A DNA stretch of 60,000 nucleotides from NCBI RefSeq assembly GCF_963921235.1, contig NC_086108.1:32180001-32240000 (forward strand), in the 5' to 3' direction. The position numbers and the translations under genes are program-made. Of the stretch, positions 14,466-58,278 are shown one piece after another. How positions within the stretch are numbered: the stretch's first letter is position 1; each line of letters opens with the position of its first letter. Source of the DNA: Mobula hypostoma. Lineage: Eukaryota. A model generated the notes under the pieces. That model did no database searches, was not told where the DNA came from, and was given only the letters and a program-made list of their open reading frames with translations.

Positions 14466-15150
14466 ATTCTCAAGAAGTAGAGAGGATGACCCTTTTATTC
14501 CCTGCACCCCGCCAAAAGTAATTTTAGAAATCTTTTCCCTGTATAAAGCTCAGTTCAGGGAGGTTGTTTCAGGTGTCTGGTGGCTATCACAGAGACAATG
14601 TTGTTTGCCAAGATTTCGCTGGGAAAGGATGCTGAAACTGATTCACTTATCCTGCCATAGACTTGGAAAATTCTTCAAGACATCATTGATAACATTACTC
14701 CAGTATTTTCATGTGCCTGTTGTAGGTAATCTACATCTCAACATCTCCTCAGGGAGCAGGACTTACTGCTGCTCAGTGGATAATGTGGGATTCAATCTGC
14801 AAACTTCCTTTTCCTCAGCTAGCTAAAGACAGTGCTAATGCATCAAAGGCAATGATGAATTCCATCATCAATGTCTGTTTTCACTGAGAGATAGTACTCA
14901 AGATATGAAAAATGGCCTATGCTTTACAAATCTTGCAGTGTATTGTCAGAAAGTGGTGTTGTACAGAGGGCCAAGTTGATAAAGGACAGTTACTTTGTGG
15001 ATGTTGAGGGTATAATCCATTGTCTTCAATGTTTCTGCACAGAAACACCAGCACCATCTACATAATGCAGCTCAACTACTGATACTGGGAGGACCTTGGA
15101 TATGGACTTGAGAAAACACTTGTTAAGAAGTTTCAACTAAATTCTGTCCT

Positions 15151-15712
15151 GAAGTGTCCAGGGAAGGGTAGCACCTCTGGTGGCGGGCTTGTCGTGCTCT
15201 GCCCAGGGGCAGTTCATCCACTTTTGGTTCCCACACCACCTAGCTCTCACCTGCGGCTCCAACTAACTGTTTGCATGCAATAGTGGCCACAGCCCTGGCA
15301 CACCGCTTCGACAGGCAGGCTAAACCAGGTGAGGGTAGCCAGGAACCTCCAACTCCGGTGAGACAGGGATAAGGATATGCCTAGCCCAGCATGAGAAGCC
15401 AGTTTCAGCAGACTGGGTGGATGAGATCAATTACAAGATCCAATGGCCAAGGTGGCAGTGCTGCAATGCTTCGTGGAGAGTGAAGGGCACACAAGGCAAA
15501 AGTAGTATCATGGTTATCCACTGCAGCCAAGGAAGACTCTAGTCATGACAATTTTTTGTACCATTGGAGCAAGATTTTTGAGGCAGAGAGACTGGAACTG
15601 ACCCAGTGCAAGGAAGGGCTTTTTCACCATAAAATTCATCCCACACAGGTTTTTCCTCTGTGCAGCTCAAGCCGCACAGGCAAACATCATCATCAGAAAG
15701 GATGGACAATGA
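15151..15712 (+). mobile_element. RTE-derived non-autonomous element, older copy with decayed HDV-like ribozyme
   Basis: Homologous to the reverse complement of 42534-43104 (gggtagcacctctggtgg...ctctcacctg...gctaaaccaggtgagggtagcc). Confidence 0.75.
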
Positions 15713-16353
15713 ACACTAAATTCTGCAGATAAATTACAGTTCAGCAAAAAAACTTATTGGAGCAATGTGCAATATTGCTGCAAAGAAAACTAAAGATAAA
15801 ATTGTGGACATTGATGCAGCCTCCTGATACCATACATTGAAATTGCCTACTGGTCAGGATCATGGCTTGCACATTTGTGAAGCAAAAGTGAATCCTGAAC
15901 TTTCTACAAATTCTAAAGATCAAGAGTCTATCAATAAAGCCAAATCTGCCACTGCATAAGTTTCACAATCTGGATCCGATCATATATTGCTGAGGTGACG
16001 TTAAACTGTACATACTCAAAATTATTACATTTGAGTGGCTAATTTATAATAAAATCACAAACAAAATCAGTTATCTTATTGTATCAACGTAATGTTAAAA
16101 AGAGGCAAAAATCCTGTGTCTAATATATATTGTGCAGGTTTTATACATACTGGTAATTGAATTTAAGGCGAGGTGATCAAAGTCATTTGCCACATTCTCA
16201 ATGAGTACAGTGTATCATTCATGCTAAATTATTACATGCCATTTGCCTTTATAGTAAATACTTCCTGACTTAAAAATAAATTTCCTTTAAATTAAGGAAT
16301 TCTCACTCTTCTAATGATATTGTCTTTTCCCTCACAACCATGTAACATATTTA

Positions 16354-37399: not shown

Positions 37400-37732
37400 T
37401 TACTGGTGAGAAGTGGAACCTTTTTAGGGACACTGCTTAGGGATTGGGAGGCTGTTTTCAGATCAGAGGATAAGACAACTAAGTCAACAAGAGCCATGTA
37501 CTCCCATTCCATTAGGAAAGGAAAGCCAGAGTTCTCAAAGAAAATTCACATCACCTTTGTGACACCAGGGTCATGCAGCATATGTGCAAAGGTATACAAA
37601 CCGTAACAGGTTACAAGTCCATCCTGCGCATCAACAGCAACGCTTCCCCTTCTAATAGAACACAAGACCATAAGACATAGGAGGAAAATTAGGTCCTTCA
37701 GCCCATCAAGTCTGCTCCGCCATTCCATCATG

Positions 37733-39529
37733 TTAAGAGCAAAAAGATTGTAAGGGATAAAATTGGTCCTCTTGAAGATCAGAGTGGTCGGCTATGTGCG
37801 GAACCAAAGGAAATGGGGGAGATCTTAAATAGGTTTTTTATGTCTGTATTTACTAAGGAAACTGGCATGAAGTCTATGGAATTGAGGGAATCAAGTAGTG
37901 AGATCATGGAAACTGTACAGATTGAAAAGGAGGAGGTGCTTGCTGTCTTGAGGAAAATTAAAGTGGATAAATCCCCGGGACCTGACAGAGTGTTCCCTCT
38001 GACCTTGAAGGAGACTAGTGTTGAAATTGTGGGGGCCCTGGCAGAAATATTTAAAATGTCGCTGTCTACGGGTGAGGTGCCGGAGGATTGGCGAGTGGCT
38101 CATGTTGTTCCATTGTTTAAAAAAGGATCGAAAAGTAATCCAGGAAATTATAGGCCGGTGAGTTTAGTATCGGTAGTAGGTAAGTTATTGGAGGGAGTAC
38201 TAGGAGACAGAATCTACAAGCATTTGGATAGACAGGGACTTATTAGGGTGAGTCAACATGGCTTTGTGCGTGGTAGGTCATGTTTGACCAATCTATTGGA
38301 GTTTTTCGAGGAGGTTACCAGGAAGGTGGATGAAGGGAAGGCAGTGGATATTGTCTACATGGATTTCAGTAAGGCCTTTGACAAGGTTCCGCATGGGAGG
38401 TTAGTTAGGAAAATTCAGTCGCTAGGTATACATGGAGGTGGTAAATTGGATTAGACATTGGCTCAATGGAAGAAGCCAAAGAGTGGTGGTAGAGAATTGC
38501 TTCTCTGAGTGGAGGCCTGTGACTAGTGGTGTGCCACAGGGATCAGTGCTGGGTCCATTATCATCTATATCAATGATCTGGATGATAATGTGGTAAATTG
38601 GATCAGCAAATTTGCTGATGATACAAAGATTGGAGGTGTAGTAGACAGTGAGGAAGGTTTTCAGAGCCTGCAGAGGGACTTGGACCAGCTGGAAAAATGG
38701 GCTGAAAAATGACAGATGGAGTTTAATACAGACAAGTGTGAGGTATTACACGTTGGAAGGACAAACCAAGGTAGAACATACACGGTTAATGGTAAGGCAC
38801 TGAGGAGTGCAGTAGAACAGAGGGATCTGGGAATACAGATAAAAAATTCCCTAAATGTGGCATCACAAGTAGATAGGGTCGTAAAGAGAGCTTTTGGTAC
38901 ATTGGCCTTTATTAATCAAAGTATTGAATATAAGAGCTGGAATGTTATGATGAGGTTGTATAAGGCACTGGTGAGGCCGAATCTGGAGTACCGTGTTCAG
39001 TTTTGGTCACCAAATTACAGGAAGGATATAAATAAGGTTGAAAGAGTGCAGAGAAGGTTTACAAGGATGTTGCCGGGACTTGAGAAACTCAGTTACAGAG
39101 AAAGGTTGAATAGGTTAGGACTTTATTCCCTGGAGCGTAAAAAAATGAGGGGAGATTTGATAGAGGTCTATAAAATTATGATGGGTACAGATAGAGTGAA
39201 TGCAAGCAGGCTTTTTCCAATGAGGCAAGGGGAGAAAAAAACCAGAGGACATGGGTTAAGGGTGAGGGGGGAAAAGTTTAAAGGGAACATTAGGGGGGAC
39301 TTCTTCACACAGAGAGTGGTGGGAGTATGGAATGAACTGCCAGATGAGGTGGTAAAGGCGGGTTCCTTTTTAACATTTAAGAATAAATTGGACAGATACA
39401 TGGATGGGAGGTGTATGGAGGGATATGGTCTGTGTGCAGGTCAGTGGGACTGGGCAGAAAATGGTTCAGCACAGCCAAGAAGGGCCAAAAGGCCTGTTTC
39501 TGTGCTGTAGTTTCTATGGTTCTATGGTT
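37733..39529 (+). mobile_element. CR1 LINE ORF2 RT and 3' end, 5'-truncated
   Basis: ORFs 37813-38454 and 38716-39510 (NYRPVSL, DFSKAFDKVPH, FADDTK); (ttctatgg)n tail. Confidence 0.93.
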
Positions 39530-41005: not shown

Positions 41006-42533
41006 TCCTCTGGTTCCCTCACACTAATGTCCTATCTAATACTACCCAAATCACCCAAGAATGTAGGATTTAGAAAGCAAGGGATGTGCGAGAGATTAAA
41101 AAAATACTATGCTTGATCATTTTCTAGAGGTTCCCACTTCTACTTCAGCAGTAGTACAGCCATGGCCACAAATTACACCAGCATCGTCATCACCTCTAAT
41201 TTTGCAGCTGAAGATGTGCAGCAAAGTACAAGCTAACAATATGCAAGCATTCATAGTCATAATTCAGGGAAAATATGTTTACTGATCCATTTGATGCAAG
41301 AAGCATCAGGAACAAAGGTGATGAACTGAGAGCTTGGATACATACATGGAATTATGATGTAGTGGCCATTACAGAGACTTGGCTGGCACCAGGGCAGGAA
41401 TGGATTCTCAATATTCCTGGATTTCAGTGCTTTAAAAGGGATGGGGGGGGGAAGGGGAGGAGGAGTGGCATTACTGGTCAGGGATACTATTACAGCTACA
41501 GAAAGGGTGGGTAATGTAGCAGAATCCTCTTTTGAGTCAGTATGGGTGGAAGTCAGGAACAGGAAGGGAGCAGTTACTCCATTGGGAGTATTCTATAGGC
41601 CCCCTGGTAGCAGCAGAGATACCAAAGTGCAGATTGGGAGGCAGATTTTGGAAAGGTGCAAAAATAACAGGGTTGTTATCATGGGTGACTTTAACTTCCC
41701 TAATATTGATTGGCACCTGATTAGTTCCAAGGGTTTAGACAGGGCAGAGTTTGTTAAGTGTGTCCAGGACAGATTCCTGTCACAGTATGTTGACAAGCCA
41801 ACTGGGGAAATGCCACACTAGATCTAGCATTAGGTAACAAACCGGGTCAGGTCACAGATCTCTAAGTGGGTGAGCATCTGGGGGACAGTGAACACTGCTC
41901 CCTGGCCTTTAGCATTATCATGGAAAAGGATAAAATCAGACAGGACAGGAAAATTTTTAATTGGGAATGGCAAATTATGAGGCTATAAGGCTAGAACTTG
42001 CAGATGTGAATTGGGATGATGTTTTTGCAGGGAAATGTACTATGGACATGTGGTCGATGTTTGGGGATCTCTTGCAGGATGTTAGGGATAAATTTGTCCC
42101 GGTGAGGAAGATAAACATAGAAACATAGAAAATAGGTGCAGGAGTAGGTCATTGGGCCCTTCGAGCCTGCACCACCATTTAGTATGATCATGGCTGATCT
42201 TCCAACTCAGAACCCTGTACCTGCCTTCTCTCCATACCCCCTGATCCCTTTAGCCATAAGGGCTATATCTAACTCCCTCTTAAATATAGCCAATGAACTG
42301 GCCTCAATTGATTCCTGTGGCAGAGAATTCCACAGATTCACCACTCTCTGTGTGAAGAAGTTTTTCCTCATCTCGGTCCTAAAAGACTTCCCCTTTATCC
42401 TTAAACTGTGATCCCTCGTTCTGGACTTCCCCAACATCGGGAACAATCTTCCTGCATCTAGCCTGTCCAATTCCTTTAGGATTTTATACATTTCAATAAG
42501 ATCCCCCCCTCAATCTTCTAAATTCCAGAGAGT

Positions 42534-43104
42534 GGTTGGTTGGTTGGTTGTTCATCCATCGTTGACGTCGATGAGGACCTCGACACCATTATGATGGTGT
42601 CAAGACTAGCGCGTGATTTGGATTTAAGTGAGGGAGAGTTGCGCAGTGTCAGCCTCACTCTATCTTCCCAATTCCCATCTGGATCCAGTGGCAAGACAGA
42701 GTCTAGACGGCTGGAGATGGCACTAGGCGCAATGGATGACCGGGACGTCTTCTGTGTCTTATTCTGCTCTACACGTTCCACGACGCTTGCAGAGACCGCC
42801 TTCTTGACTGTTGGACCTTCCATAGGTCTCGTCCGCTCAATCCGCCGGAGTCTGCCTTCACATGCAGGGATAGACAACTCCCTATCTCACCAAGGGTTTG
42901 AGACCTGTCGGCTACCCTCACCTGGTTTAGCCGGCTTGTGGAAGCCGTTGCCCGGGGTATGGCCGCTGTCGCATGCAAACAGCTACGGGGAGCCACAGGT
43001 GAGAGCTGAGTGCCAGGTGGGGACCAAAGGTGGACTAACCGCCCTGAAAAGGACGCAACATGTTCCCCACCAGAGGTGCTACCCCTCCCTGACACCCCAA
43101 ACAC
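42534..43104 (-). mobile_element. Young full-length RTE-derived non-autonomous retroelement (~570 bp)
   Basis: 9-bp TSD ccagagagt (42525-33, 43105-13); (caac)n tail; CpG-rich; ribozyme-like fold at the 5' end. Confidence 0.85.
42917..43098 (-). ncRNA. HDV-like self-cleaving ribozyme (predicted)
   Basis: P1 GGGGUGU/AUACCCC; P2 CUCACCUGU/AC(C)AGGUGAG; P3 GGC/GCC; L3 UCCCCGUA plus hairpin; GGGCAA; P4 CGGCUU-CCAC-AAGCCG; J4/2 GCUAA. Confidence 0.8.
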
Positions 43105-45033
43105 CCAGAGAGTATAAGCCTAGTCGATCCAGTCTTTCATCATATGAAAGTCCTGCCATCCCAGGAATCAATCTGGTGAACCTTCTTTGTACTCCCTCTA
43201 TGGCGAGAATGTCTTTCCTCAGATTAGGGGACCAAATCTGCACACAATACTCCAGGTGTGGTCTCACCAAGGCCTTGTACAACTGCAGTAGTACCTCCCT
43301 GCTCCTGTACTTAAATCCTCTTGATATGAATGCCAGCATACCATTCGCCTAAGAATGGTAGGGTGAAGGAACCATGGGTGACAAGTGAGGTGGAAAATCT
43401 AGTCAAGTGGAAGGAGGCAGCATATATGAGGTTTAGGAAACAAGGATCAGATGGGTCCATTGAGGAACATAGGGTAGCAAGAAAGGAAGGGGCTGAGAAG
43501 AGCAAAAAGGGGGCATGAGAAGGCCTTGGCGAGTAGGGTAAAGGAAAACCCCAAGGCATTCTTCAGTTATGTGAAGAACAAAAGGATGACAAGAGTGAAG
43601 GTAGGACCCATTAGAGATAAAGGTGGGAAGATGTGCCTGGAGGCTGTGGAAGTGAGCGAGATCCTCAATGGATATTTCTCTTCAGTATTCACCAAGAGGG
43701 AACTTGATGATGGTGAAGACAATATGAGTGAGATTGATGTTCTGAAGCATGCTGATATTAAGGGAGAGGAGGTGTTGGAGTTGTTGAAATACATGAGGAT
43801 GGATAAGTCCCCAGGGCCTGACGGAATACTACCCAGGCTGCTCCACAAGGTGAGGGAAGAGATTGCTGAGCCTCTGGCTAGGATCTTTATGTCCTCGTTG
43901 TCCACGGAAATGGTACCAGAGGATTGGAAGGAGGCGAATGTTGTCCCCTTGTTCAAAAAGGTAGTATGGATAGTCCGGGTAATTATAGACCAGTGAGCCT
44001 TATGCCTGTGGTGGGAAAGCTGTTGGAAAGATTCTTAGAGATAGGATCTATGGGCATTTAGAGAATCATGGTCTGATCAGGGACAGTCAGCATGGTTTTG
44101 TGAAGGGAAGATCATGTCCAACAAGCCTGATAGAGTTCTTTGAGGTGGTGACCAGGCATATAGATGAGGGTAGTGCAGTGGATGTGATCTACATGGATTT
44201 TAGTAAGGCATTTGACAAGGTTCCACATGGTAGGCTTATTCAGAAAGTCAGAGGCATGGGATCCAGGGAAGTTTGGCCAGGTGGATTCAGAATTGGCTTG
44301 CCTGCAGAAGGAAGAGGGTCATGGTGGAAGGAGTACATTCGGATTGGAGGGTTGTGACTAGTGATGTCCCACAAGGATCGGTTCTGGGACCTCTACTTTT
44401 CGTGATTTTTATTAACGACCTGGATGTGGGGGTAGAAGAGTGGGTTGGCAAGTGTGCAGACGACACAAAGGTTGGTGGTGTTGTAGATAGTGTAGTGGAT
44501 TGTTGAAGATTGCAGAGAGACATTGATAGGATGCAGAACTGGGCTGAGAAGTGGCAGATGGAGTTCAACCCGGAGAAGTGTGAGGTGGTACACTTTGGAA
44601 GGATAAACTCCAAGGCAGAGTACAAAGTAAGTGGCAGGATACTTGGTAGTGTGGAGAAGCAGAGGGATCTGGGGGTACATGTCCACAGATCCCTGAAAGT
44701 TGCCTCACAGGTGGATAGGGTAGTTAAGTAAACTTATGGGGTATTAGCTTTCATAAGTCGAGGGATAGAGTTTGTCGCGAGGTAATGATGCAGCTCTATA
44801 AAACTCTGGTTAGGCCACACTTGGAGTACTGTGTCCAGTTCTGGTCGCCTCACTATAGGAAGGATGTGGAAGCATTGGAAAGGGTACAGAGGAGATTTAC
44901 CAGGATGCTGCCTGGTTTAGAGAGTATGGATTATGATTAGAGATTAAGGGAGCTGGGCTTTACTCTTTGGAGAGAAGGAGGATGAGAGGAGACATGATAG
45001 AGGTATAAAAGATATTAAGAGGAATAGATAGAG

Positions 45034-48000
45034 ACAATACAATTCATAAAATAAAGAATCCAAAGACAAAGCTTGTGGAGAGTACAATAGGGAAAATTCA
45101 AGAAAGTTTTGAAACGTATTATCGAGAGCTGTACTCCCAACCCCGGGCCCCCAATGAGCCCTATATAGACAGTGTATTGAATTTTTTAGATCTACCTAAA
45201 CTTACAGATTTACAAAATGAAAGTTTATTAGAACCAGTAACTGTCAAAGAACTGAACGTGGCCATCTCTAGGTTAAAGGCTGGAAAGTCCCCGGGTTCTG
45301 ATGGGTTTACCTCAGAGTGGTACAAGTCCCTGAAGACACAGTTAGCCCCATTACTACTTAACACCTTTAATTGGATCTTGCAGAGAGGAGAAACTCCACC
45401 TTCCTGGAGAGAAGCGATTATTTCAGTTATTCCTAAAGAGGGTAAAGATAAACTAGAATGTGGCAATTATCGGCCAATTAGTGTTCTTAATTTAGATTAC
45501 AAACTATTTACATCTATATTAGCGCGCAGATTGGAAAAGCTTTTACCTGGCCTAATCCATTTAGACCAGACTGGATTTATTCAACAAAGACAAACACAGG
45601 ACAACATAAGGAGAACTCTGCACATATTAGAACAGGTTAATAAGAACGAGACAGAGACAATGGTAGTAGGATTGGACGCTGAGAAAGCTTTTGATTCGGT
45701 TAGTTGGGCATTCCTATACAGAGTGTTAGGAAGATTCGGCTTTCAAGAAAGGTTTATTAAAGTAATTCAGACTCTGTATGACAGCCCAACAGCCCGAATT
45801 AAGATAAATGGGGACCTCTCTGACTCCTTCATTTTAGAGAGAGGCACTAGACAGGGATGCCCAATTTCTCCTCTCCTTTTTGCGCTATATATTGAACCAC
45901 TTGCCCAACTAATAAGACAGAGCGAAATCGTAAAAGGTATCAAGGTGGCAGGGATTGAACAGAAAGTGGCGTTATTCGCAGATGATGTTTTGGTCTATCT
46001 GAGTGAACCAGAAAAATCATTTATAGGATTGTTTACACTGTTGGATGACTTTGGGAAAATATCAGGTTATAAAATAAATGTAAAGAAAACGCAGGTTATG
46101 TCCCTAATTTATACACCATCCAAAAAATTGCAGGATACATACGATCTTAAGTGGGAAGCTAAATCATTAAAATATTTAGGAATAACCCTGCCGAAGGATC
46201 TTTCAACACTGTCACAGGTAAATTATGGGCCAATAATCTCAGAGATAAAAGCAGATATGCATAGATGGAATCTTATCCCCTTTTTAAGTTTAAATTCAAA
46301 GGATAAATACTATAAAAATGAATATTCTTCCTCGGTTATTATATCTTTTCCGTACTTTACCAGTGGAGGTGGATGATAATCAATTCAGGGAATGGGACAA
46401 ATGGATTTCCCGCTTCATTTGGCAAGGAAGGAAACCTAGAATTCGATATAACATTTTACAGTTAGGGAAGGAAAGAGGAGGTATGGTTCTTCCTTGCCTG
46501 AGAAATTATTTTTATGCCTCACAGATAACCCCTCTGTTATATTGGTGTAATAGGGAATATTAGATGGAAGGAAATAGAATTTGGATTAGTTGACAGTTTT
46601 CCTCTTCAGGCCTCAATAGCTGACAAAGGATTGATGGCCCAGTTGGAAAAATTTAATAATGCTTGGATAAATCTTACATTAAAAGTATGGCAGAAGGTGG
46701 TTAATTCATGTGGAATTAATAACATGCTAAAACTCTTTAGATGGTGTGCATATGATACCGAATTCCTTCCCAACAGAGGAGATAAAAGATTTGAGCTATG
46801 GATAAAGAAAGGTCTTACAACCTACCTCTCATTTATAGATAAAAGAGTATTACAAAGTTTCCAAATCCTGCAGGACAAACATGGCCTAGAACATAATGAC
46901 TTTTTTAGGTACCTTCAAATACGAAACTATGTTAACCAGAGTTGTAGATATACAGACCTATCAACAGTAGAATTAGAATTTTTCAAGATTCTGAATTCGG
47001 CTTGCAGTTCAATACCTAGTAAATCAGTTTCTCGCCTATATAATGCACTCTCCCATGCTAAAAATGTAAATACACTGTATATTAAAGAGAAGTGGGAGAA
47101 AGAAGCGGGGTTGGTACTTTCAGAGGAGGCTTGGGGGAAAATCTGCAGCTTTCAATGGTCCTCGACTAATTCTTTGACTTGGAGAGAACATTGTTGGAAA
47201 AACATTATAAGATACTTCAAGACCCCATATCAGGAAAAATATAAAGATACAAATGTGATGTGTTGGAGAAGGTGCGGCTCCAAGGAGGCAAATCATTTTC
47301 ATATTTTCTGGGATTGCCCTAAATTAAGTCTATTTTGGGAAGGTATTCATAGAACATTAGTTAAGGTACTTAGGTCCCAGATACCTCTGAACTTTGAGAC
47401 GCTCTATTTGGGGCATGTATTGTTCCTTGAACAGAAGGAAGATATAAAGTTGCTGCAGGCCCTCTTAGCGGCAAGTAAGAAATCAATCACTAGAAAATGG
47501 CTAAATCCAATACCACCTACATTAGAAGATTGGTACGAAATTATCTTGGAAATATTTAAAATGGAAAAGTTGACCTACTCCCTGAGAACTCAAAAAGAAA
47601 CATTTTATCAAATCTGGAATAAATGGATTGAATATATAACCCCAATGCGAGCAGACTTTAGATGACTCTCCTAATGATTTATATTGCTCTTCTCATCAAC
47701 ACAGTAATATTGCTAACGTAAGCACCCCTAGTCTAAATGTTTGTTGTTTTTTTTTGGAAAATAGAGAATTAACACAAGTAAAGGGAAAGATTTGGGAAAG
47801 GGATAAAAAAAATGAAAAAATTAAGTAAATAAGTACATAGGGATTGGATAATTATGTCTGCGGGCAGGAACAAGCACGAACAAATTGGGATATAAACACC
47901 TACAATGGTTGGTATATAGGCTTGTATGCAACATTTTGGACCAGTGGAAATGGTCCAGAAGAGTTGTATGGAAACTATTATTACCATTTTTCTTAACAAC

Positions 48001-48888: not shown

Positions 48889-50007
48889 AAAGATAATTAA
48901 AACATCTCCATTCAGGATGATAACATATTGTAATGTCCTTTAACAACTCTGAACAAACTCAAAATGTAAATAGTATTCAACTGCCAAGCATCTCTATATT
49001 TACACTTACCTTGGCACGCTTCATTTAGAAACTAGTTAACCAAAACCTTTTGTTATTGCTATCAAATGTAATCAATTTAATCCCCTAGTCCTATTGAAAT
49101 AAAAGTTGCCTCTACTGCATAACCTTTCTTTTTAATTAGCCTTAAACGTTTACTTAGGTATCAGTACTGTAAATAATGTTTATGAACATTGTTGATCTGC
49201 AACTGAGAAGGAGTAAGGCAGTATTCTTACTAATTAGAGGCATCAGGTCATTAATTCGCTGTAATGTCCTGTAAGTTATAAGCTATAATTATTTAAAGAA
49301 TTTTGGTTTAGGTCTACTGTACACCTGTGCTAATAAAACATTGGAAATTTATGAAAACATAATAATTTATATTCAACTTGCCTATTTGAACAAAGTAATT
49401 TCTTTGACTGTTTAGCTTCTTTAAACACTGTAGAGATTTCAAAGAAATCGCAGCACTGTCATCTGTAAAACTTTTTAGCTTTTTTCATCTCTACTCTCAA
49501 ATTTCCTGAAAAACCAACCCTGCCTTCAACCACCAAATCTTTAAGTTTACTCTCATTTCCAGTGCAGGAAAGGGATTTTAGGGTGCACACTCGTAATCAG
49601 AGAAGCAAACTACAGAACATAAATACAAAATAGGAGCAACGAACATAAGGAAATAAGGAGACATAATTTTACTCAAAGTTGATATAATCTGGAACTTAGT
49701 ATCTCAGGAAATACCAGAGCTGAATGATTAACATCCTTCCAAAAACAAAATTAGGCAGATATAGAAATAAAGAAAATTTGTACGAGAGAGAAGCAGTTGA
49801 GTTGGACTGCATTGGAAGATTTTGTGCATCATATTCTACAGAGTGTACATTCTCTTTTACTAAGGATTAAATTTTTCTTCTAAAATGTTTTCTCACTTTA
49901 AATTTGCTTTTGTATTCTTTGGTTTTATGTTCACAATGCAACTAACCCTATGTATTCACTTTGTAATTACAACAGGGTGAACTCAGCTTTGCTATTAGAA
50001 ACTAATA

Positions 50008-50369
50008 GACACCTCCTTCTCCTTTATTAGGGAGAGAGAGAACCTTTGGGATGTCGAATGCCGGGTGAAACTCAGTCTTTGAGGTCGCTGCAAGCCTGTC
50101 TTTGCTATTGCTTTGCTCATGCTGGAGTGCTCAGTGGCAGTGCCGAAGCTTGCTTTTTTTTGCCAGTGGGGGGAGGGGGATTATTGCTTGCTGCCACAAG
50201 CATGGGAGGGAGGGGAGCTGGGGGGGGGACTTTGGAATTCTTACGTTTAACTGTCCTTCATTCTTTGGGGCACTTCTCTTTTTTTGTGGATGCTTGCAAA
50301 GAAAAAGCATTTCAGGGTATATATTGTATACATTTCTCTGATATGAAATTGGACCTTTGAACCTTTGAG
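50008..50369 (+). mobile_element. 3' part of the non-autonomous element seen at 31918-34876
   Basis: Aligns by eye with 34510-34876. Confidence 0.75.
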
Positions 50370-51387
50370 AAGCTAGTAACCAGAAGATACAGCTCTTCAC
50401 ATGAAATAAAGATCAACTGAGAAATTTCCAAGGTCACTCAAAGGTTCACTGCATTTTGTAAACTAAATTGCAGTCAACCAGGAAGTTTGCTTGCAGACAG
50501 ATACTACAAATCAAGGCAAAAGGAAATAAACAGCAAAGAATGCACAAGAACAATAAATTACTCCAGAGGAACAAGTCAGATTCAAACTTCCCCTATAAAT
50601 AATGACATCATAGATTTTACAATGCATTGGTATAATAAATTATTACAAGCCTTCGTTAGTCTTACCTATTAGGTCCTTGTCTGAGTATTGAAGCTGATAC
50701 CATTTGTTGAGAACATTCAATCCTTGCGTGCCACCCCAATATTTCCCTCAGTTCTCTAAATCAAACTAATTACTCATACCCTACCGCACTATCTGCACTT
50801 AGCTTAAAATTCTATCATCTTCAATAACCTAATACAAAAACATAAGAAATAGTAGCAAGCCAACTAACCATTGAAATCTGCTCTGCTGTTCATCAATAGC
50901 TGAATTCTCACCTTGGGGCCAGTTTCCGCACCACTCTCAAATCCTTTTACCCAAAAGGATAAAAGTAACATCCAAAAATCAATAGATCTGTTTGAAATGA
51001 ACTGAATAATCAAGCTTCAGGAGCCTTCCAGTATAGACACTTCCAAAGGGCCATTCCCTTCAGAGAAAAAGATTCTCATCAATCTTCACTGCAATCAGCT
51101 CGAGCACTCACTTGTGGAAGTGACGGCACGAGGTCGAAAAAGAGATTGGAGTCTTTTTGGCACTCGACAGAAGCCAATAAAACGAAGCAAGGTGTAAGCA
51201 GAGCGGCCATTGTTAGAGTGGTCGGGCTTTGGCTCAACAGTCTTTAACGAAAACAGGTAGAAGGTTTAAGCATTTAGTAAGCTTTTCTCTCCCCCCCACT
51301 TTCTTTGTGTAATAGTACATAACTAGTGTGGTGACAATGGATCTAGGGTTAATGGTATGTCCTTCGAGTGAGATGTGGGAACTTTCA

Positions 51388-51681
51388 GGTGCCACAGTAG
51401 GGTAGCAATTAGCGTGACACTATTATAGCTTGGGGATTTTCAGAGTTCGATTCCAACACTATTCTGTATGAAGTCTCTGTATACCCTCCCAGTAAAGTAC
51501 ATGGGTTCTCTCCGGGTCATCTAGTTTCTTCCCATAGTCTAAAGATGTACCAGGTAGGCTAATTGGATATTGTAAATTGTCCCATGATTGTGTTTGAGTT
51601 AACAGGGTTTGTCGGGGGTTGCAGGGGCAGCATGGCTCAAAGAGCCGTAGGGGCCTAATCCACGCTGTATCACTAAATAAA
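51388..51681 (+). mobile_element. V-SINE (HE1-like tRNA-derived SINE)
   Basis: B box gagttcgattcc; V-domain-like gggttctctccgggtcatctagtttcttcccatagtctaaagatgt...taattgg...tgtaaattgtccc; CR1-like tail. Confidence 0.75.
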
Positions 51682-52921
51682 CTCTGGGAGACTCCAGTCT
51701 ACCTGATAACCACATCTGAATGAGGTGCATCGAGCTTTAGTCCTAAGACTGTGTTAAGGAACTGGAGCTGCAGCTGGATGACCTTCGGCTCATGCAAAAG
51801 AATGAGGAGATGACAGACAGGAGCTTCAGGGAGCCAGGCATCTCTGAGTTGTAGGAGGCAGGTACATGGATAACTATCGAGGGAAGGAAGGAGAACATGA
51901 AGCCAGTGCAGAGTACCACTCTGGCTGTTCCCCTCTATAATAAGTATACCGCTTTGGATACTGCTGGGTACAAGGGGGTGATGGGGGCGGGGGTGGAGAT
52001 GAGACCTCTCAAGGTCCTGACACTCTGACACAGAGTTCGATGATTCTGTGGATGTGACAGAGACACCTGGATGACATGTTGCCTCCCAGGTGCCTGGGTC
52101 AGGGATATCTCTGATCAGGTCCACAGCATTCTAATTTGGCAGGGTAAACAAACTGAAGTGTGGTGCATATTGGTAGCATATTGGGATAAGGCCCAGAAGA
52201 GAGAATATAAGGAGTTAGGAAAAAGGTGAAAAGCAGCACTTCAGGGGTAATAATTTCTGGATTGATGTCTGTGTAGTGCCCCAATAAGGGTAAGAATAGG
52301 ATGAATTTGCAGATGATTGCTTGGCTGAGGAATTAGTTCAGGGGGCAGTGTTTCAATTTTCTGGATCATTGGGATCTCTTCTGGGGAAGGTGCGACATGT
52401 ACAAAAAAGGACAGGTTACACCTGAACTTGAGGAACCAACATCCATGCAAGCAGGTGAGCTGGAGCTGTTGAGGAGAGTTTAAACTAATTTGGCAGGGGA
52501 ATGGGAACCGGAGTGATAGAGTTGAGGATGGGGCAGTTGTAGATGTAGGCCGTAAGTAGATGCAATGTGTAATGAAACTGTGAGGAAGGACAGGCAGATG
52601 ATAGGGCAAAATTTCAGTCAGTGGGATGAGTTGAAGTGTAACATGGGGGCAAAAATCAAAAAGGGTGATGAAAACAGGACTGAAGGTGTTATATTTGAAT
52701 GCACAAAGTATACAGAATAAGGTAGATGGTCTTGTAAGCCATTAGAAATTGACAGATATGATGCCATGGGCATCACTGCATCATGACTGAAAGGAGATCA
52801 CAATTGGGAGCTTAGCATTCAAGGATACACATTATATTGAAAGGACAGGAAGGAAAGCAAAGGGGGTTGGGCTGTCTCTGTTGGTAAAAAGTACATTCAG
52901 ATCCTTAGAAAGGAGTGACAT

Positions 52922-54228
52922 TGTCATGGTCCAGTCCGTGAAGTCCACATTCTGGTTCACGGTCCAGTCCGTGGACTCAGGACTCTGGGTCTTCCAGCTG
53001 TCCCTTGTTTGGTTGAGTTAATCATAGGCACCTGATTCCCATCTTGGGGCTTGGAATATAAGTGGCCTTGGGGTCGAGTGTGAGTTGCTGGTTTGTCTTG
53101 TCAAGATTCCCTGGGAGCAACCTGCCGGTGGAAGGCTAGAGCGGCCACTTGCCATCTTTAGGCCGTGTTAGAAAACCATCGCTTCATGAAGCCTTGCTGT
53201 CCGTAGTCGGAACCATCTTTGCGGTATGGATTTGGCCATTTCCTGGGCCGAGTGGCCATCAGCCACTCTGAGCTAGGTAGGGATCCGGCTGTTTCCGTAG
53301 CCAGCCGAGGTTGCTGGCTGTAACTGCTACTCAGAGCAACCCGATGCAGAGATGGAACTGTCAGTCATTCTTTGGTGTTTGTCTCTTCTTGTCCTCGCCT
53401 CCGTGGGGTAAGTCAAGCCGTTCTGCCGTTGCCCTGCAGGGGGGTCCTGTCTCGTCTTGTCTTGTCCTCACCTCCATGGGGTAAGTCAGGCCATTCTGCT
53501 GTTGCCCTGCGGGGGGGGGGGTGGAATCTGTCTTGTCTTGTCTTGGCCTCTGTTGGGTAAGTCCGGCCGTTCTGCTGTTACCCGACGGAGGGACCTGTCC
53601 CACCTTGGTGTGGAAATGAAGTTGAGTCCTGGCTTGTCGTAGGATACGTCCTGGCTCTTTATCTGTGTTCTGTCCAGTCTCATGTTAGTGTCGTGTTAAA
53701 GATGAGTCCCAGCTTTTCAAAGGATAAGTCCTGGCTCTATGTTGATGTACAGTTCCCAGTCTGTCTCCGAGCTCCAGCCTCCGAGTTATCGGCTTCCGCA
53801 TTCCAAAACCCCAGCTCCCAGCCTGCAAGCCTCAAGAGCCAAGACCCCAGCCTGTCTCCAAGCTCAGGCCTCTAGACCCCAGCCATATCCTGTCCTGAAG
53901 CTATGTCATGTCCTTGCCTGGTTCTGGTGTCCGAGCCTGAGACAAGACCCAGGTTCTGGGTCCTTGTCCAGTCTCTGGCTCGGAGTCCAAGCCTTGTCTC
54001 CTAGTCCATGGTTTCTAGTCCTGGTCCCGCTCTCCCTCGCCCAGACTCCTAGTTCTTAGTTCCTTGTCCGGGTTCCCTGTCTAGTCCTTGTCCTAGCCCA
54101 AGTCTGCATTCTTGTCCCTGCTCCTTGTCTGTAACCTGTCACGTCCCTACTCTAGACAAGTCCTGTTCCTAGTACTTCAGTGTCTGTGTCTTGCATTTGG
54201 GTCCGTTCCCAACGCCCCCATTGTGACA
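52922..54228 (+). mobile_element. Solo LTR, 1307 bp, Gypsy-like, inserted in CR1
   Basis: tgtcat...gtgaca termini; 5-bp TSD gacat; TATA at ~53057; internal tandem repeats. Confidence 0.88.
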
Positions 54229-55254
54229 GACATAGGATCGGAAGATGTAGAATCCTTGTGGATAGAGTTAAGAATCTGCAAAGGTAAAAAGACCCTGATG
54301 GGAATTATATACTGGCCTCCAAACAGTAGCTAGGATGTGGGGCACAAATTGCAACAGGAGATAGAAAATGCATGTAAAAAGGGCAATGTTATGATAGTCA
54401 CGAGTGATTTCAATATGTAGGTAGAATGAGAAAATCAAGTTGGTGCTGGATTCCAAAAGAGGCAATTTGTAGAATGCCTTAGATGGCTTTTTAGAGCAGC
54501 TTGTGGTTGAGCCCTTTAGGAAAAAGCCAATTCCAGACTGGATGTTGTGTAATAAACCAGATTTGATTAGGGAGCTTAAGGTGAAGTAAACCTTTAGAGA
54601 CAATTATCAAAATATGATAGAATCCACCCTGCAGTTTAAGAGGGAGAAGATAAAGTCAGATATATCAGTGTTACAGTGGAATAAAGGGAAGTGCAGAAGA
54701 ACAAAACAGGAGCTGACCAAAGTTGATTGGAATCAACTAGCAGAGATGGCAGCAGACTAGCAGTGGTTGGAGTTTCCTGGAGCAATTTCGAAGATGCAGA
54801 ATGGATAGATCCCAAATAAGTAGTAGTATTCTAAAAGAAGTGTGATGAATCATGGCTGACAAGAGAAATCAAAGATGGCATAAAAGCAAAGGAGAGGCCA
54901 TCTAATACAGTATCACAAAAATTAGTGGGAATTTAGAGGACTGGGAAGATTTCATAAACAGAAAAAAAGGCAACTAAAAAGCCACAAGGACAGAAAAGAT
55001 GAAATATGAAGGTAAGCTAGCCAATGATACGAAAGAGTACACAAAAAGTTTATTTCAGATATAGAGGGGTCAGAGTGGATATCAGACTGCTGGAAAATGA
55101 CACTGGTGAGGTTGAAATGAGGGACAAAGAAATGATGATCAAACTTAAGTATTTTGCATCAGATTACACCATGGAAGATACTAGTAATATGCCAGAAATT
55201 CATGTGTGTCAGGGGTCAGGAGTGTGTATACCTGCTATTACTAAGGAGAAAGTA

Positions 55255-55333
55255 CAGGTTTCCCCAGCCACCTGAAGGTAGAGCGTTCCTATGAAACTGT
55301 TCGTAAGCCGAAATGTCGTAAAGCGAAGAAGCA
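55255..55333 (+). mobile_element. Tigger-like transposon left end
   Basis: TA|caggtttcccc...gtagagcgttcctatgaaac...tcgtaagccgaaatgtcgtaaagcgaa; no right end seen. Confidence 0.55.
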
Positions 55334-55344
55334 GAGGGGGGCGG

Positions 55345-55881
55345 AGGAGGAGGGGAGATGCAGACCTTTTGATGTCTTCGCTGTTGGTTTCGGGCAGACC
55401 TTTTGATGTCTTCTATCCCGCTGTGGTCACCGACTGTGACCCCTCCGTTCCGGATACGATCGTTCTTCCACAGTGAACCCGGCACCCAGGCAAGGGCGGA
55501 CACACACCCCAGGTTCCCACCGATCGTACCTTTACACCCTGTGAGCCTCTGGTCGGTTCCTGCGAACCGGTCCTCCAAACTCTCGCGAACCGGTCCTCCA
55601 AACTCTCACCAACCTGTGGGGGCACACTGCTCTTTCAGGGTCTCGTGGTGTGTCTCGTGCCTTAGCAAACCTGCTCTTTTTATCCCCCTGCTGGGGTATC
55701 ACCTGTCCATCAAACTTCAAACAGTTCAGGTTCAAAGTAACCAGTCTGTCAATATTCTGAATTGTGTTTCTTTTCCGTTAATCCCCCTCTTCTCTCTTAC
55801 TAGCATTTTGAATGTTTCTCTATTGTCTCTCTTATCTCTCTCATTAGCATCAATCGTCCGATAGCTTTGTTTGGCGTCACA
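55345..55881 (-). mobile_element. 3'-truncated LTR related to 20952-21804
   Basis: Minus-strand start tgtgacgcc; shares ctgaactgtttgaag...ataccccagcagggggataaaaag...; 23-bp tandem duplication at 55562-55607. Confidence 0.85.
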
Positions 55882-57063
55882 AATGCTACAAAGTTAACTG
55901 GACCAGTTAAGTTCAACTATAGCTTTCCAACAAACACTGGGATATAACCAAGGCTATACATAATTATATGGTGAATGAAGTCTGATTTTAACTGTTCTGC
56001 AGATTTGATAAAGCATTTGCTTTGGTAGTCAAGGCTGAAGCATTGAGCATTTGTGTAAGGATAGATCTCTGCTGCATTTCTGTCCTTTCAACAATTCAAA
56101 AATTATTGCAAATAATTTCTTTCTTCCAACCTCTGATAAAAATGATTACTTGGTCTTCAATTATCATGTTAATGACCAGAGAAGATTGTCCAATAAAGTC
56201 AACTATATCTTTATTTGGAAAGGAAATAAAGTAATAACTTCAAGGTTAGCATCACCTTATTCCAATGCTCTGCTTCTTCTCAAGCACCAACTTTCTGCCC
56301 CATCACATCATACCTCAACATCTTTTACAGAATGGTATTCTGTAAAGCGCGTAATCCAATGTTTCCTTAAAAATTCAAATTGTATAGTAATTTGCTCATT
56401 CAACCTACAGTTAAACACTGTCAACAATCACTTAAATCTGACAGATTATAGAGCAGCATTTACTTTGGCAAAGAAAAAGAATTATGAGTCTAACTACCGA
56501 TAATAATTACATATACTTTTCATTTGATTCATATTACTTAACTCTAAAGCCTGACATGTTAGAACTACTTAAGCAACCACTAAACTCCAAATTCCAACAC
56601 AAATGACTGTCATTCTGCTTGTTAATTACAATTTGACAGCATGATAATATTTGATGAAAGAATTTGAATGAATACAAGTGACTGCACATACTTTTAAGAT
56701 ATGAGAGTAGAAAAATAACTGTTTTATTCATTTACTGATTTTCACACACATTTCATGATCTTTTTCTTCTGCATCCCAGATTTTTTTTTGGTAGTGATTT
56801 GTTAATTTCATCAGGGCAAATTTCCTTTTTTGAGAACTTCCTTAATGCCAAAGTTACCTGTCCTTTAATTATTAAAATAATTAAGTTAAAATCATTATAA
56901 CATCACAAAGCTAAAGCCTTTAGGAACATTGAGAGTAAATGAAACTGTGTCTGCACATCTCAAATGGAATCCGAGATTATCTATAACATTTAAAAATAAA
57001 ATAATTCAAGATGATAGCCCACAAATATATATCTGGCACAAAAGTTTTTTTTCTAAAAAACTA

Positions 57064-57380
57064 CAGTAGAGCTCTGATAGAGCATCTGACCATTTGGAAA
57101 TCCCAATGGTTCGGCATCTGATGTTTCCACAATACCCCAGAACTCAACAGTTCCTGCATTCTCCAGTGATCTCAGAGATCCCATGCCCGTATTCCTCCAA
57201 GACACACCTCACCCGCGTTTCCACATTTCCTCAAGGCTCAACAAGTGCAAAAGGAATTTTATTATTATACTCTGCAACACAATAAAAAAAACTGGTTTAT
57301 GAACCACCTTCAATAGTCCAGAAAAATCAGTCAGTCCAGCACTAAAATAGCACGTGTGCCAGATTATCAGTTTTATCGTA
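57064..57380. mobile_element. Possible old Tigger-type MITE
   Basis: TA|cagtagagctctgatag ... tgccagattatcagttttatcgTA; imperfect TIRs. Confidence 0.4.
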
Positions 57381-58278
57381 CACATAATTTAAAATAAGGC
57401 AGTAAAGAGGGGAGTAAAATATGCTTTCCAAACAAACCCTGGCTATTTGCCAACACCAACCAGTTTTGCACACTGTATTGAAGTATAAAATATAACTTAC
57501 CAATGCAGCCTCTCCCAAATACTGTATGTTATGAACAGAACTTCAACTTGGAAAAGGAAAAGCATAATCTGCATGTTTATGCAATAGGTGTAGTAGAAGA
57601 AAGCAAACTCAGCATTTAAATCCTACAGACAATGCATAAACATGATTCAGTGATTTTGGACTTGAGCTTAAAATGTTAAAGACATGATAAGAGGCACCGA
57701 AAGGGATGCATAAAAAATAAGTTCTTGATGCTGACAGTTAAATATTACACAGATGTGATTTGAATGACTCAATTAGATAGTCAACAGTCTTGCATTCCCT
57801 TTGACAGTTGTTGACACATAACTTTCCTGTTAAAGCAGCATTGCAGTTACAGAACACAGGATGGTGTAGTGGCAAAAAAACTGCTCTGTTAATGTTTTAG
57901 ATTGTACAAGGCAACATTCCAAAAAATGACATGCCAGTGAAGTAAAGTAGTTTTGTACAGCATGCAATGTGATGTTAGTACACAGTTGGAACTGATGAGC
58001 CAATTTTCATTTAAAAATCAGACCGCCATCAAAATATTAAACCTAAAGCTGAAACCAAACTGGCATCAAAGGCGAATCCCAAATAACCTTTGTATCCAGG
58101 GTTTCAGTGAACACTGGGTGTACTCGAATTTGAGGTTGTTGAATCTGGACAACACTATGGTCAAGGGGTTAACAAAAAAATGACATTATTACTTAAAAGA
58201 ACTTATAAAATTAGATTCTGTATGCACACTGCCTTATGAGTCTGCAAATGACAAAGTTAACCGCATCTGCTGCAGATC

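What the first reader, a model, noticed from the sequence alone, without database searches (positions are those of the whole stretch)
42917..43098. Apparently intact HDV-like ribozyme in a young RTE-derived element, in sense with the dynamin pre-mRNA
Seen: the minus strand folds by eye into the full HDV nested double pseudoknot. P1 is GGGGUGU (43098-92) with AUACCCC (42960-54). J1/2 is 88 nt and structured. P2 is CUCACCUGU (43003-42995) with ACCAGGUGAG (42926-17; one bulged C). P3 is GGC/GCC. L3 starts UCCCCG, whose CC can pair with the GG after P1 to form P1.1. GGGCAA follows P1 as in genomic HDV. P4 is CGGCUU-CCAC-AAGCCG, and J4/2 is GCUAA with the catalytic-C equivalent at 42930. The predicted cleavage site (5' of 43098) is only 6 nt from the TSD-defined 5' end of the element. 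Known: HDV-like ribozymes process the 5' ends of R2 and RTE retrotransposons, and the mammalian CPEB3 intron carries one. Inference: the ribozyme lets this promoterless element cut itself out of host transcripts. Because it is in sense within dynamin intron 1, it could also cleave the nascent dynamin pre-mRNA. Caveat: CACCUGG in J1/2 could compete for the P2 3' strand.
Basis: partly seen in the sequence, partly recalled or inferred. Interest (0 to 1): 0.9.

Follow-up and report, generated by a model that had tools for sequence, protein, structure and literature searches.

The report
HDV-like ribozyme heading a retroposon family

Summary
They sit at the 5' end of a ~575-nt, (CAAC)n-tailed, non-coding retroposon. 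It has thousands of first-look matches in this genome and an older sister family, one copy of which lies in the window at 15143-15715.

The young family satisfies every sequence constraint of published HDV descriptors. Between the two families, P4 and a hairpin inside "L3" show compensatory changes, and the core is otherwise conserved. A tailored descriptor scan found no hits outside this family.

Three corrections:
The cut is therefore most likely at the element's first base.
- "L3" is an 8-nt HDV-type loop plus an inserted 19-nt hairpin.

"RTE-derived" and "intron 1" could not be verified. No Rfam family reaches threshold, and there are no cleavage data. Verdict: a probable new structural variant of a known kind.

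The parts
42534..43106 (-). Whole non-autonomous retroposon ('Y' family copy): ribozyme head, about 330 nt of non-coding body, and a (CAAC)n tail ending at 42534.
   Evidence: 29 of 29 other copies in the first sample align from the equivalent of 43106 (+/- a few nt) to about 42547 plus a variable tail. No Pfam family passed on its ORFs.
43105..43113 (-). 5' target-site duplication ACTCTCTGG. Its last GG overlaps the element's first Gs.
   Evidence: The element interrupts a CR1-like LINE reading ...LGLYSL|EFRRLRGDLIEMYKI.
42525..42533 (-). 3' target-site duplication ACTCTCTGG.
43101..43106 (-). First G run, GGGUGU. In the family it is GGGGUGU, with one more G at position 0. This is the proposed true P1 5' strand, with the predicted cut 5' of its first G. 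In this copy position 0 (43107) is T.
   Evidence: Position 0 is G in 31 of 37 Y copies and 5 of 5 O copies with intact runs. The modal distance from the TSD end to the second run is 9 nt. The run is the complement of P1' ACACCCC.
43088..43098 (-). 43097-43088 (GGGUGUCAGG) forms the 5' strand of the helix that closes the J1/2 domain.
   Evidence: MFE folds. Constrained folds favour this arrangement by 3.5-10.2 kcal/mol. Pair 13-104 is GU in 29 and GC in 21 sequences.
43004..43100 (-). J1/2: a 97-nt structured peripheral domain. The 3' strand of its closing helix, CCUGGCACUC, is at 43017-43008.
   Evidence: Its interior (element nt 39-77) is the least conserved part of the head.
42995..43003 (-). 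P2 5' strand, CUCACCUGU.
   Evidence: It is paired in 95.7% of cells and does not vary between the families.
42992..42994 (-). P3 5' strand, GGC.
   Evidence: The alternative 3' partner GCU (42983-42981) is broken in the older family.
42984..42991 (-). L3 proper, UCCCCGUA. C42990 and C42989 form P1.1 with G42952 and G42953.
   Evidence: It matches the published L3 motif TYYHCG(N)Y. The older family has UCCAAGUA.
42965..42983 (-). Inserted hairpin ('P3.1'), GCUGU-UUGCAUGCG-ACAGC, lying between L3 and P3'.
   Evidence: The outer pair is G-C in 25 sequences and A-U in 26, changed on both sides. The hairpin forms in the MFE fold.
42961..42963 (-). P3 3' strand, GCC, preceded by the unpaired G42964.
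42954..42960 (-). P1' (P1 3' strand). It reads AUACCCC in this copy and ACACCCC in both family majorities.
   Evidence: 42959 reads as the majority base in nearly all laid contigs.
42948..42953 (-). P1.1 3' strand GG (42953-42952) and J1.1/4 GCAA.
   Evidence: The older family reads GGUACA here.
42932..42947 (-). P4 hairpin, CGGCUU-CCAC-AAGCCG.
   Evidence: Second pair: G-C in 25, C-G in 12. Fifth pair: U-A in 27, U.G in 27. The same paired changes, 42946 with 42933, are seen in contigs of other coded organisms.
42927..42931 (-). J4/2, G + CUAA. The proposed catalytic C is at 42930.
   Evidence: It matches the published CNRA motif. It is nearly invariant in 57 sequences.
42917..42926 (-). P2 3' strand, ACCAGGUGAG, with one bulged C.
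42890..42911 (-). Hairpin just downstream of the ribozyme. Both families keep it, with different sequences.
15143..15715 (+). Older relative ('O' family copy) with TSD CTAAATTCTG. It is 69% identical to the young copy and decayed in P1.

Best explanation
The element is a non-autonomous, non-coding non-LTR retroposon. It has no recognisable promoter-type head. Its first ~190 nt encode an HDV-like self-cleaving ribozyme.

How it works. The element is transcribed as part of a longer host transcript, here the dynamin pre-mRNA. The 5'-terminal GGGGUGU pairs with ACACCCC, which lies directly 3' of P3, to form P1. The ribozyme then cuts 5' of the first G. This releases an RNA that starts exactly at the element's first base, and a LINE reverse transcriptase acting in trans copies that RNA.

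The remaining parts:
- L3 (UCCCCGUA), P1.1 (CC/GG) and J4/2 (CUAA, C42930) form the active site.
- A 19-nt hairpin is inserted where L3 meets P3'.

Shown here: the anatomy, the conservation, the two compensatory changes and the 5'-end pile-up. Inferred: catalysis, the cut site, and use of the cut RNA as the transposition template.

In this window's copy the family's first G is replaced by T, and P1' carries a C-to-U change. The upstream P1 is therefore 6 bp with one G.U, and the downstream alternative is 7 bp with one G.U. Either site could be used if this copy is active at all.
For: 1. The young family meets every sequence constraint of the published HDV descriptors read:
   - L3 TYYHCG(N)Y is UCCCCGU.
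   - J4/2 CNRA is CUAA.
   - RN after P1' is GG.
   - P1 opens with G paired to a pyrimidine.
   - P3 is 3 bp.
   - P4 is a stem.
2. The 5' end was defined independently, by TSDs and by where flanks diverge. It is GGGGTGTAT. Position 0 is G in 31 of 37 Y copies and 5 of 5 O copies. The TSD-to-second-run distance is modally 9 nt. Contigs of another coded organism also diverge at 43106. These 7 nt are the exact Watson-Crick complement of the 7 nt that follow P3'. The chance of that for a fixed pair of sites is about 6e-5 by my arithmetic.
3. Changes between the two families:
   - The second P4 pair is G-C in 25 sequences and C-G in 12.
   - The fifth P4 pair is U-A in 27 and U.G in 27.
   - The outer pair of the inserted hairpin is G-C in 25 and A-U in 26.
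   - In L3 only positions 4-5 change, while U1, C2, C3 and G6 are kept.
4. The head is the most conserved part of the element: 171 of 200 columns against 395 of 598 overall.
5. Descriptor controls gave no hit outside the family in 120 kb of window, 587 kb of loci, 1.2 Mb of shuffles and 2000 head shuffles.
6. Unconstrained MFE folds leave the first run and P1' free, and they pair the second run with 43017-43008. Constrained folds favour this register by 6.5, 10.2 and 3.5 kcal/mol.
7. Among 4227 Rfam families, a weak match to an HDV family appears on this strand: RF02682, covering P1' to J4/2.
8. There is precedent in R2 elements for J1/2 loops of up to 700 nt, for duplicated P1 strands giving two possible cut sites, and for variable extra bases at 5' junctions (PMC3774820, section 18 and passages). 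There is also precedent for structured J1/2 domains that activate large HDV-like ribozymes (PMC4908430, abstract).
Against: - No Rfam HDV-type model comes near threshold. There was nothing at E<=10 in 10 kb, and only 13.4 bits against a gathering score of 44 in the 216-nt search.
- P1, P2, P3 and P1.1, the pairings that define the double pseudoknot, do not vary between the two families. They have no covariation support.
- The compensatory changes amount to about one event per helix, because only two lineages were available.
- A 21-nt insertion between L3 and P3' does not fit any published descriptor I read. Its compatibility with catalysis is assumed.
- The older family has A at the L3 position that the descriptors fix as C.
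- The first G run is more variable among young copies than the second. GGGTATAT occurs in 8 of 47 copies and would mismatch P1'. That is odd for an essential P1 strand, unless those variants arose at or after insertion.
- The total fold energy is not better than shuffles (z = -0.56).
- A defined 5' end could also come from a transcription start site.
Confidence: 0.68

Rival explanations
1. The ribozyme is real, but P1 is the second run (43098-43092), and the main cut is 5' of G43098. This removes the first 8-9 nt of the element.
For: In this window's copy the second run gives the full 7-bp P1 and has U at -1. U is the fastest -1 base for genomic HDV (abstract of PMC1874588, seen in the listing). 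The first run gives only 6 bp here. The second run is almost invariant among young copies (2 variants in 49) while the first varies more.
Against: The 8-9 nt upstream of this site are part of the element in both families, across 13% and 2% of within-family divergence. RNA cut here would lose them. No copy in the internal-query sample starts cleanly at G9. The 2 of 29 that start nearby keep the AT linker. The second run is paired elsewhere in the MFE folds, and this register costs 3.5-10.2 kcal/mol.
Confidence: 0.12
2. A conserved structured 5' leader that does not self-cleave. It might be a protein-binding or translation or promoter module, or a decayed descendant of a ribozyme. The 5' end would then be set by transcription initiation.
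For: There are no cleavage data. No Rfam model passes. The L3 insertion and the A in the older family's L3 depart from the conserved core. Covariation supports only the two local hairpins, which any structured RNA could have.
Against: It would have to be coincidence that L3, P1.1, J4/2, P3 and P2 all match the HDV descriptor with zero hits in the controls. It would also have to be coincidence that the element's terminal 7 nt complement exactly the 7 nt after P3'. No tRNA, 5S or 7SL-like head was detected that would supply a Pol III promoter.
Confidence: 0.17
3. A chance resemblance in a G+C-rich repeat.
For: The fold energy equals that of shuffles. The descriptor I scanned with was relaxed after seeing the candidate.
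Against: Controls gave zero hits. The head is conserved across two families and is present in contigs of four other coded organisms. There are compensatory changes.
Confidence: 0.03

Closest known systems
R2 retrotransposon 5' HDV-like ribozymes (Eickbush, Burke and Eickbush 2013, PMC3774820; section 18 and passages read)
   Same: The ribozyme is at the element's 5' end and frees the element RNA from a co-transcript. J1/2 is very long. Duplicated P1 strands can offer two cut sites and extend the 5' end. Variable extra bases occur at 5' junctions.
   Different: R2 is autonomous and specific to 28S rDNA. This element is non-coding, dispersed and present in thousands of copies. R2's P3/L3 are contiguous, and no hairpin between L3 and P3' is described in the parts I read.
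HDV-like ribozymes of RTE and Baggins elements (Ruminski et al. 2011; paper not held, known to me only through the review PMC6765202, passages read)
   Same: These are promoter-less non-LTR elements transcribed from introns or neighbouring units and processed by a 5' HDV-like ribozyme.
   Different: I could not show that this element derives from an RTE. No partner LINE was found, and the ORF peptide has no Pfam match or longer homologue.
L1Tc / NARTc L1TcRz of Trypanosoma cruzi (PMC3185411 and PMC3383444; abstracts seen in the listing)
   Same: A non-autonomous derivative (NARTc) shares the 5' HDV-like ribozyme of its LINE.
   Different: L1TcRz is a compact 77-nt module that is also an internal promoter. 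Here the fold spans about 190 nt and no promoter function is shown.
Genomic HDV ribozyme
   Same: L3 is 8 nt, starting U-C-C and with G at position 6 (U20-U27 in HDV, passages of PMC1874588). P1.1 uses two Cs of L3 and two Gs after P1. The GGGCAAC after P1 and the C-N-A-A of J4/2 are as I recall them for HDV.
   Different: The G1 partner is C, not U. J1/2 is 97 nt. A 19-nt hairpin is inserted at the position of HDV's U27. I recall, from no call, that U27 can be deleted without loss of activity.
Mammalian CPEB3 intronic ribozyme
   Same: An HDV-like ribozyme lying in sense within an intron of a host gene.
   Different: CPEB3 is a single conserved locus, not part of a repeat family (review PMC6765202).
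Rfam RF02682, HDV ribozyme from F. prausnitzii
   Same: It is the only HDV-type Rfam model that aligned. It covers the end of P1', GGCAAC, P4 and GGCUAA.
   Different: The score is 13.4 bits against a gathering score of 44, with E = 3.1, so this is not a membership call.

Membership tests
HDV-like self-cleaving ribozymes | A P1 of about 7 bp that starts with the cleavage-site G paired to a pyrimidine, with its 3' strand immediately after P3'. | tested here: met
   GGGGUGU pairs with ACACCCC in both family majorities. In the window copy this is 7 bp (second run) or 6 bp (first run), each with one G.U. The helix does not vary between families, so there is no covariation.
HDV-like self-cleaving ribozymes | A P2 pseudoknot of at least 6 bp between the strand 5' of P3 and the 3' end. 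| tested here: met
   CUCACCU pairs with AGGUGAG, plus 2 more pairs across a 1-nt bulge. 95.7% of cells are paired and the helix is invariant between families.
HDV-like self-cleaving ribozymes | The L3 sequence TYYHCG(N)Y (descriptor in the PMC4870747 supplement). | tested here: met
   The young family and the window copy have UCCCCGU. The older family has UCCAAGU and fails at position 5.
HDV-like self-cleaving ribozymes | An L3 of 7-8 nt closed directly by a 3-bp P3. | tested here: not met
   P3 GGC/GCC exists, but 21 nt (A, a 19-nt hairpin, G) lie between L3 and P3'. The canonical descriptor setting gave no hit.
HDV-like self-cleaving ribozymes | P1.1: two L3 bases pair with the two bases after P1'. 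| tested here: met
   CC pairs with GG. The two pairs are C-G in 55 and 45 of 57 sequences.
HDV-like self-cleaving ribozymes | J4/2 reads CNRA and contains the catalytic C. | tested here: met
   CUAA at 42930-42927, directly followed by P2' and nearly invariant.
HDV-like self-cleaving ribozymes | A P4 stem. | tested here: met
   It is 6 bp, with one pair changed on both sides and one wobble change between the families.
HDV-like self-cleaving ribozymes | A match to a curated covariance model at its gathering score. | tested here: not met
   The best HDV-type hit is RF02682 at 13.4 bits against 44.
HDV-like self-cleaving ribozymes | Site-specific, divalent-ion-dependent self-cleavage that leaves a 5'-OH and is abolished by mutating the J4/2 C. 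| not testable with these tools
   No raw RNA reads were on offer, only contigs.
Retrotransposon 5'-end ribozymes (R2, RTE, Baggins, L1Tc type) | The predicted cut site coincides with the 5' end of genomic copies. | tested here: met
It is met for the first G run.
RTE-derived non-autonomous element | The 3' end (and/or 5' end) is shared with an RTE-clade LINE. | not tested
   No repeat library was available and no partner was found. Only the short-repeat tail (CAAC/AAC)n was seen. The neighbouring CR1-like LINE has a different tail.
Classical SINE (Pol III head) | A head derived from tRNA, 5S or 7SL RNA. | tested here: not met
   There was no such Rfam match at E<=10.

The most novel reading that the evidence does not exclude
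This would be a new structural subclass of HDV-like ribozyme, with a helix inserted at the L3/P3' junction and a duplicated P1 strand that offers two cut sites. It would be catalytically active in thousands of young copies of a vertebrate retroposon. Sense-oriented intronic copies, such as this one in dynamin, would then impose co-transcriptional cleavage on host pre-mRNAs genome-wide.
Probability: 0.2. Interest if true: 0.8.

Novelty: new variant of a known kind. Interest (0 to 1): 0.55.

Why it matters
If the family is active, one vertebrate genome holds thousands of near-identical self-cleaving ribozymes, many presumably inside genes. That would make it a natural system for asking how host transcripts tolerate intronic ribozymes.

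It would also show that the HDV active site tolerates a whole helix inserted at the L3/P3' junction. Current covariance models and descriptors miss such forms, so similar ribozymes may be under-counted elsewhere.

The duplicated P1 strand is a non-R2 example of the route that Eickbush and colleagues proposed for shifting cut sites and lengthening J1/2.

Tried and rejected
- **Alternative P3 (GGC with GCU, 42983-42981), giving a canonical 8-nt L3 and a 20-nt J3/1.** Rejected. The older family has A at 42983's equivalent, which breaks that pair but keeps the hairpin.
- **The hairpin itself as P3.** Rejected. Its loop has no CC for P1.1, and P2 would no longer abut P3.
- **A GGGTATAT subfamily as a covariation test of the first run.** 8 of 47 copies carry it. 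It is not linked to other markers and not matched by a change in P1' (6 of the 7 such copies listed keep ACACCCC). Inconclusive.
- **RNA evidence.** No RNA holder was listed and no raw reads were on offer. Laying contigs of four runs gave no information on starts or ends (table 6: none).
- **Partner LINE and RTE origin.**
  - The element's ORFs have no Pfam family above threshold.
  - A search for longer homologues of the 122-aa sense ORF found none at E<=0.001.
  - The adjacent CR1-like LINE ends in a TTCTATGT repeat, not (C)AAC.
- **Dynamin exon 1.** Not in 50000-60000. Dynamin_N hits on this contig only mark window 6453-6677.
- **Earlier scan notes.** Nothing was recorded at this place or for this sequence. 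The word search returned only other genomes.
- **Literature.**
  - 'HDV-like ribozyme' plus 'shark' returned one R2 survey.
  - 'HDV-like', 'L3 loop', 'insertion', 'ribozyme' returned three papers, none describing a helix inserted in L3 by title or abstract.
  - 'HDV ribozyme', 'U27', 'G11C' returned nothing.
  - Ruminski 2011, Webb and Luptak 2011 and Webb 2009 are not held.
Full report
**What is at the site.**

Read on the minus strand, window 43113-42525 is a retroposon insertion flanked by the 9-bp direct repeat ACTCTCTGG (43113-43105 and 42533-42525). It interrupts the 3' coding end of a CR1-like LINE, whose frame reads ...LGLYSL | EFRRLRGDLIEMYKI across the insertion. The insert runs from 43106 to a (CAAC)n tail that ends at 42534.

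Its reading frames match no Pfam family above threshold. The 122-aa sense ORF has no longer homologue at E<=0.001. Rfam finds no tRNA, 5S or 7SL-like head. It is therefore a non-autonomous, non-coding element without a recognisable Pol III promoter.

**Copy number and age.**

The window lies in a 3.48-Gb assembly. A 231-nt query from the head gave 2545 first-look candidates, and a 301-nt internal query gave 2824. The 40 matches scored in each search were 95-97% identical. These counts are lower bounds and may overlap. Forty-seven full-length copies differ by a mean of 2.2% from their majority, so "young" is right.

A BLAST of the element against everything I held found a second, diverged copy in the window itself. 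It lies at 15143-15715 on the plus strand, has TSD CTAAATTCTG and is 69% identical. Using it as a query recovered an older family: 3352 candidates, with copies 80-86% identical to the query and a mean of 13.4% from their own majority. I call the two families Y (young) and O (old).

Contigs of four differently coded organisms also carry both sequence types. In one of them, contigs diverge from the window exactly at 43106.

Two things were not stated:
- With P3 = GGC/GCC, the enclosed "L3" is 28 nt long.
- The P1 5' strand is duplicated: GGGUGU at 43106-43101, a UU linker, then GGGGUGU at 43098-43092.

**Comparison with published definitions.**

The Luptak-type descriptors are printed in the RNArobo supplement (PMC4870747, Additional file 1, part 4). 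They require:
- P1 written G.....:.....Y;
- a 3-bp P3;
- L3 = TYYHCG(N)Y;
- RN after P1';
- a P4 stem;
- J4/2 = CNRA;
- a P2 of at least 6 bp, with one insertion allowed.

The Y family and the window copy give UCCCCGU, GG and CUAA. They have a 7-bp P1, a 3-bp P3, a 6-bp P4 and a 7+2-bp P2 with one bulged C. With that bulge, CNRA abuts P2' and P2 abuts P3, as in canonical members.

The departures are a J1/2 of 88-97 nt and 21 nt (A, a 19-nt hairpin, G) between L3 and P3'. Long J1/2 loops, from 23 to over 700 nt, are documented for R2 ribozymes (PMC3774820, section 18). Structured J1/2 domains activate large HDV-like ribozymes (PMC4908430, abstract). I found no description of a helix at the L3/P3' junction in the searches I ran. 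From memory only, the equivalent HDV nucleotide (U27) can be deleted without loss of activity, which would make this a tolerant spot.

**Is it more than chance?**

I wrote a descriptor scanner that keeps the published sequence constraints but allows an L3 insertion of up to 25 nt and a J1/2 of up to 120 nt.
- On both strands of the window it reports only this site. With canonical limits it reports nothing.
- On 587,288 bases of the other loci (both strands) it reports 36 sites, all of them Y copies.
- On ten dinucleotide shuffles of the window (1.2 Mb) it reports none.
- On 2000 shuffles of the 217-nt head it reports none.

The relaxations were chosen after seeing the candidate, which weakens this test, but the background rate is clearly low. 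Fold energy by itself is uninformative (z = -0.56).

**Comparative evidence.**

Majority sequences of Y and O, and a 57-sequence alignment scored against the pseudoknotted model, show the following:
- The second P4 pair is G-C in 25 sequences and C-G in 12.
- The fifth P4 pair is U-A in 27 and U.G in 27.
- The outer pair of the inserted hairpin is G-C in 25 and A-U in 26.
- The alternative P3 (GGC with GCU) is broken in O.
- L3 changes only at positions 4-5 (CC to AA) and keeps U1, C2, C3 and G6.
- J1.1/4 differs (GCAA against UACA).
- P1, P1', P2, P2', P3, P1.1 and J4/2 are unchanged.

The same paired P4 change (42946 with 42933) and the same L3 CC-to-AA change appear in contigs of other coded organisms.

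The head is the best-conserved part of the element. The two majorities agree at 171 of 200 columns over nt 0-197, against 395 of 598 overall. The differences are concentrated in the J1/2 interior and in P4.

The limits of this evidence are plain. There are only two lineages, so each compensatory change is about one event. The long-range helices that define the double pseudoknot are conserved but never tested by variation. O's A at the descriptor's fixed C is unexplained.

**Where would it cut?**

They do not.

In a sample drawn with an internal query, and so unbiased for the 5' end, the 29 copies divide as follows:
- 17 start at the first G run.
- 10 are truncated further in, at element nt 26, 33, 69, 69, 71, 76, 77, 78, 122 and 187.
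- 2 start next to the second run, but they still carry the AT linker.

Across all copies with both runs intact, the base before GGGTGTAT is G in 31 of 37 Y copies and 5 of 5 O copies. Where a TSD could be called, the distance from its end to the second run is most often 9 nt. The family therefore starts GGGGTGTAT.

Those seven terminal bases are the exact complement of ACACCCC, the P1' of both family majorities. In HDV-like ribozymes the cut site is set by whichever ~7 nt pair with the ~7 nt directly after P3/L3 (PMC3774820, section 18). So the cut predicted from P1' falls on the independently defined first base of the element.

The second run has another partner. Unconstrained MFE folds of the window copy and of both majorities pair GGGUGUCAGG (43097-43088) with CCUGGCACUC (43017-43008). 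This closes the J1/2 domain and leaves the first run and P1' free. With the pseudoknot partners blocked, the first-run register is better by 6.5 kcal/mol for the window copy, 10.2 for the Y majority and 3.5 for the O majority.

R2 offers a model for this layout. A duplicated P1 strand gives two possible cut sites, and the inner copy can then be absorbed into J1/2.

Some evidence goes the other way. The first run is more variable among Y copies than the second. In this window's copy the first G is a T and P1' carries a C-to-U change, so here the second-run P1 (7 bp) is formally the better helix.

**Surroundings.**

Dynamin-type exons lie on the minus strand near 10939 ([20 protein letters not shown]) and 6650 ([16 protein letters not shown]). 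The element is therefore upstream of these exons and in sense.

I did not find exon 1 in the window. "Intron 1" is plausible but unverified.

Cleavage of the dynamin pre-mRNA is an inference that depends on this copy being active.

**Verdict.**

This is very probably an HDV-like ribozyme that defines the 5' end of a high-copy, non-autonomous retroposon. The kind is known from R2, RTE, Baggins and L1Tc/NARTc (PMC6765202, passages). The build is non-canonical: an inserted L3/P3' hairpin, a 97-nt structured J1/2 and a duplicated P1 strand.

Catalysis remains untested. No RNA reads were available.

Noticed in passing
window 15143-15715 (+): An older relative of the same retroposon, with TSD CTAAATTCTG, lies antisense to dynamin. 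Its first G run and P1' have decayed. It led to the O family used for the comparison.
   Followed up: yes
5' junctions of loci L002-L060: When position 0 is G, the base just upstream of the element is T in 24 of 31 Y copies, and the TSD usually ends in that T. U is also the fastest -1 base for genomic HDV cleavage (abstract of PMC1874588). About 8 copies carry 1-9 extra bases between the TSD and the element, often ending in ...TATG or ...TTG.
   Followed up: partly
loci L037, L039, L042, L044, L046, L054: Six of 29 copies in the unbiased sample are 5'-truncated within a 10-nt span (element nt 69-78), inside the J1/2 domain. This may be a reverse-transcriptase pause at the structured domain.
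   Followed up: no
window 42522-43352 (+) and the Y-family majority: The strand antisense to the element has no stop codon across the whole Y element: 186 codons in the majority and 276 in the window with flanks. This is not so in O. There is no Pfam match. The sense strand is stop-free from about nt 222 to the tail in Y (113 codons) and from about nt 279 in O (95 codons).
   Followed up: partly
window 42917-42922 and 42885-42890 (-): GGUGAG, the P2 3' strand, recurs 27 nt downstream after the next hairpin. CACCUGG in J1/2 resembles the P2 5' strand. Both P2 strands, like P1, therefore have near-duplicates that could form alternative folds.
   Followed up: no
window 53380-53583: A 73-bp tandem repeat of 2.7 copies lies in the most G+C-rich kilobase of the window (GC 0.548).
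   Followed up: no
window 45009-46376 (+); 37693-39510 (+); 43478-44940 (+): Other LINE debris surrounds the site. There is a 455-aa open RVT_1 reverse-transcriptase frame (E = 2e-45) and several CR1-like RT fragments. The CR1-like LINE that hosts the insertion ends in a TTCTATGT repeat near 42110.
   Followed up: partly
locus L068, about 2091-2459 and 2195 (+): A second copy of the retroposon lies about 100 nt after an O copy in the same locus. It carries the Y-type L3 and passes the descriptor scan.
   Followed up: no
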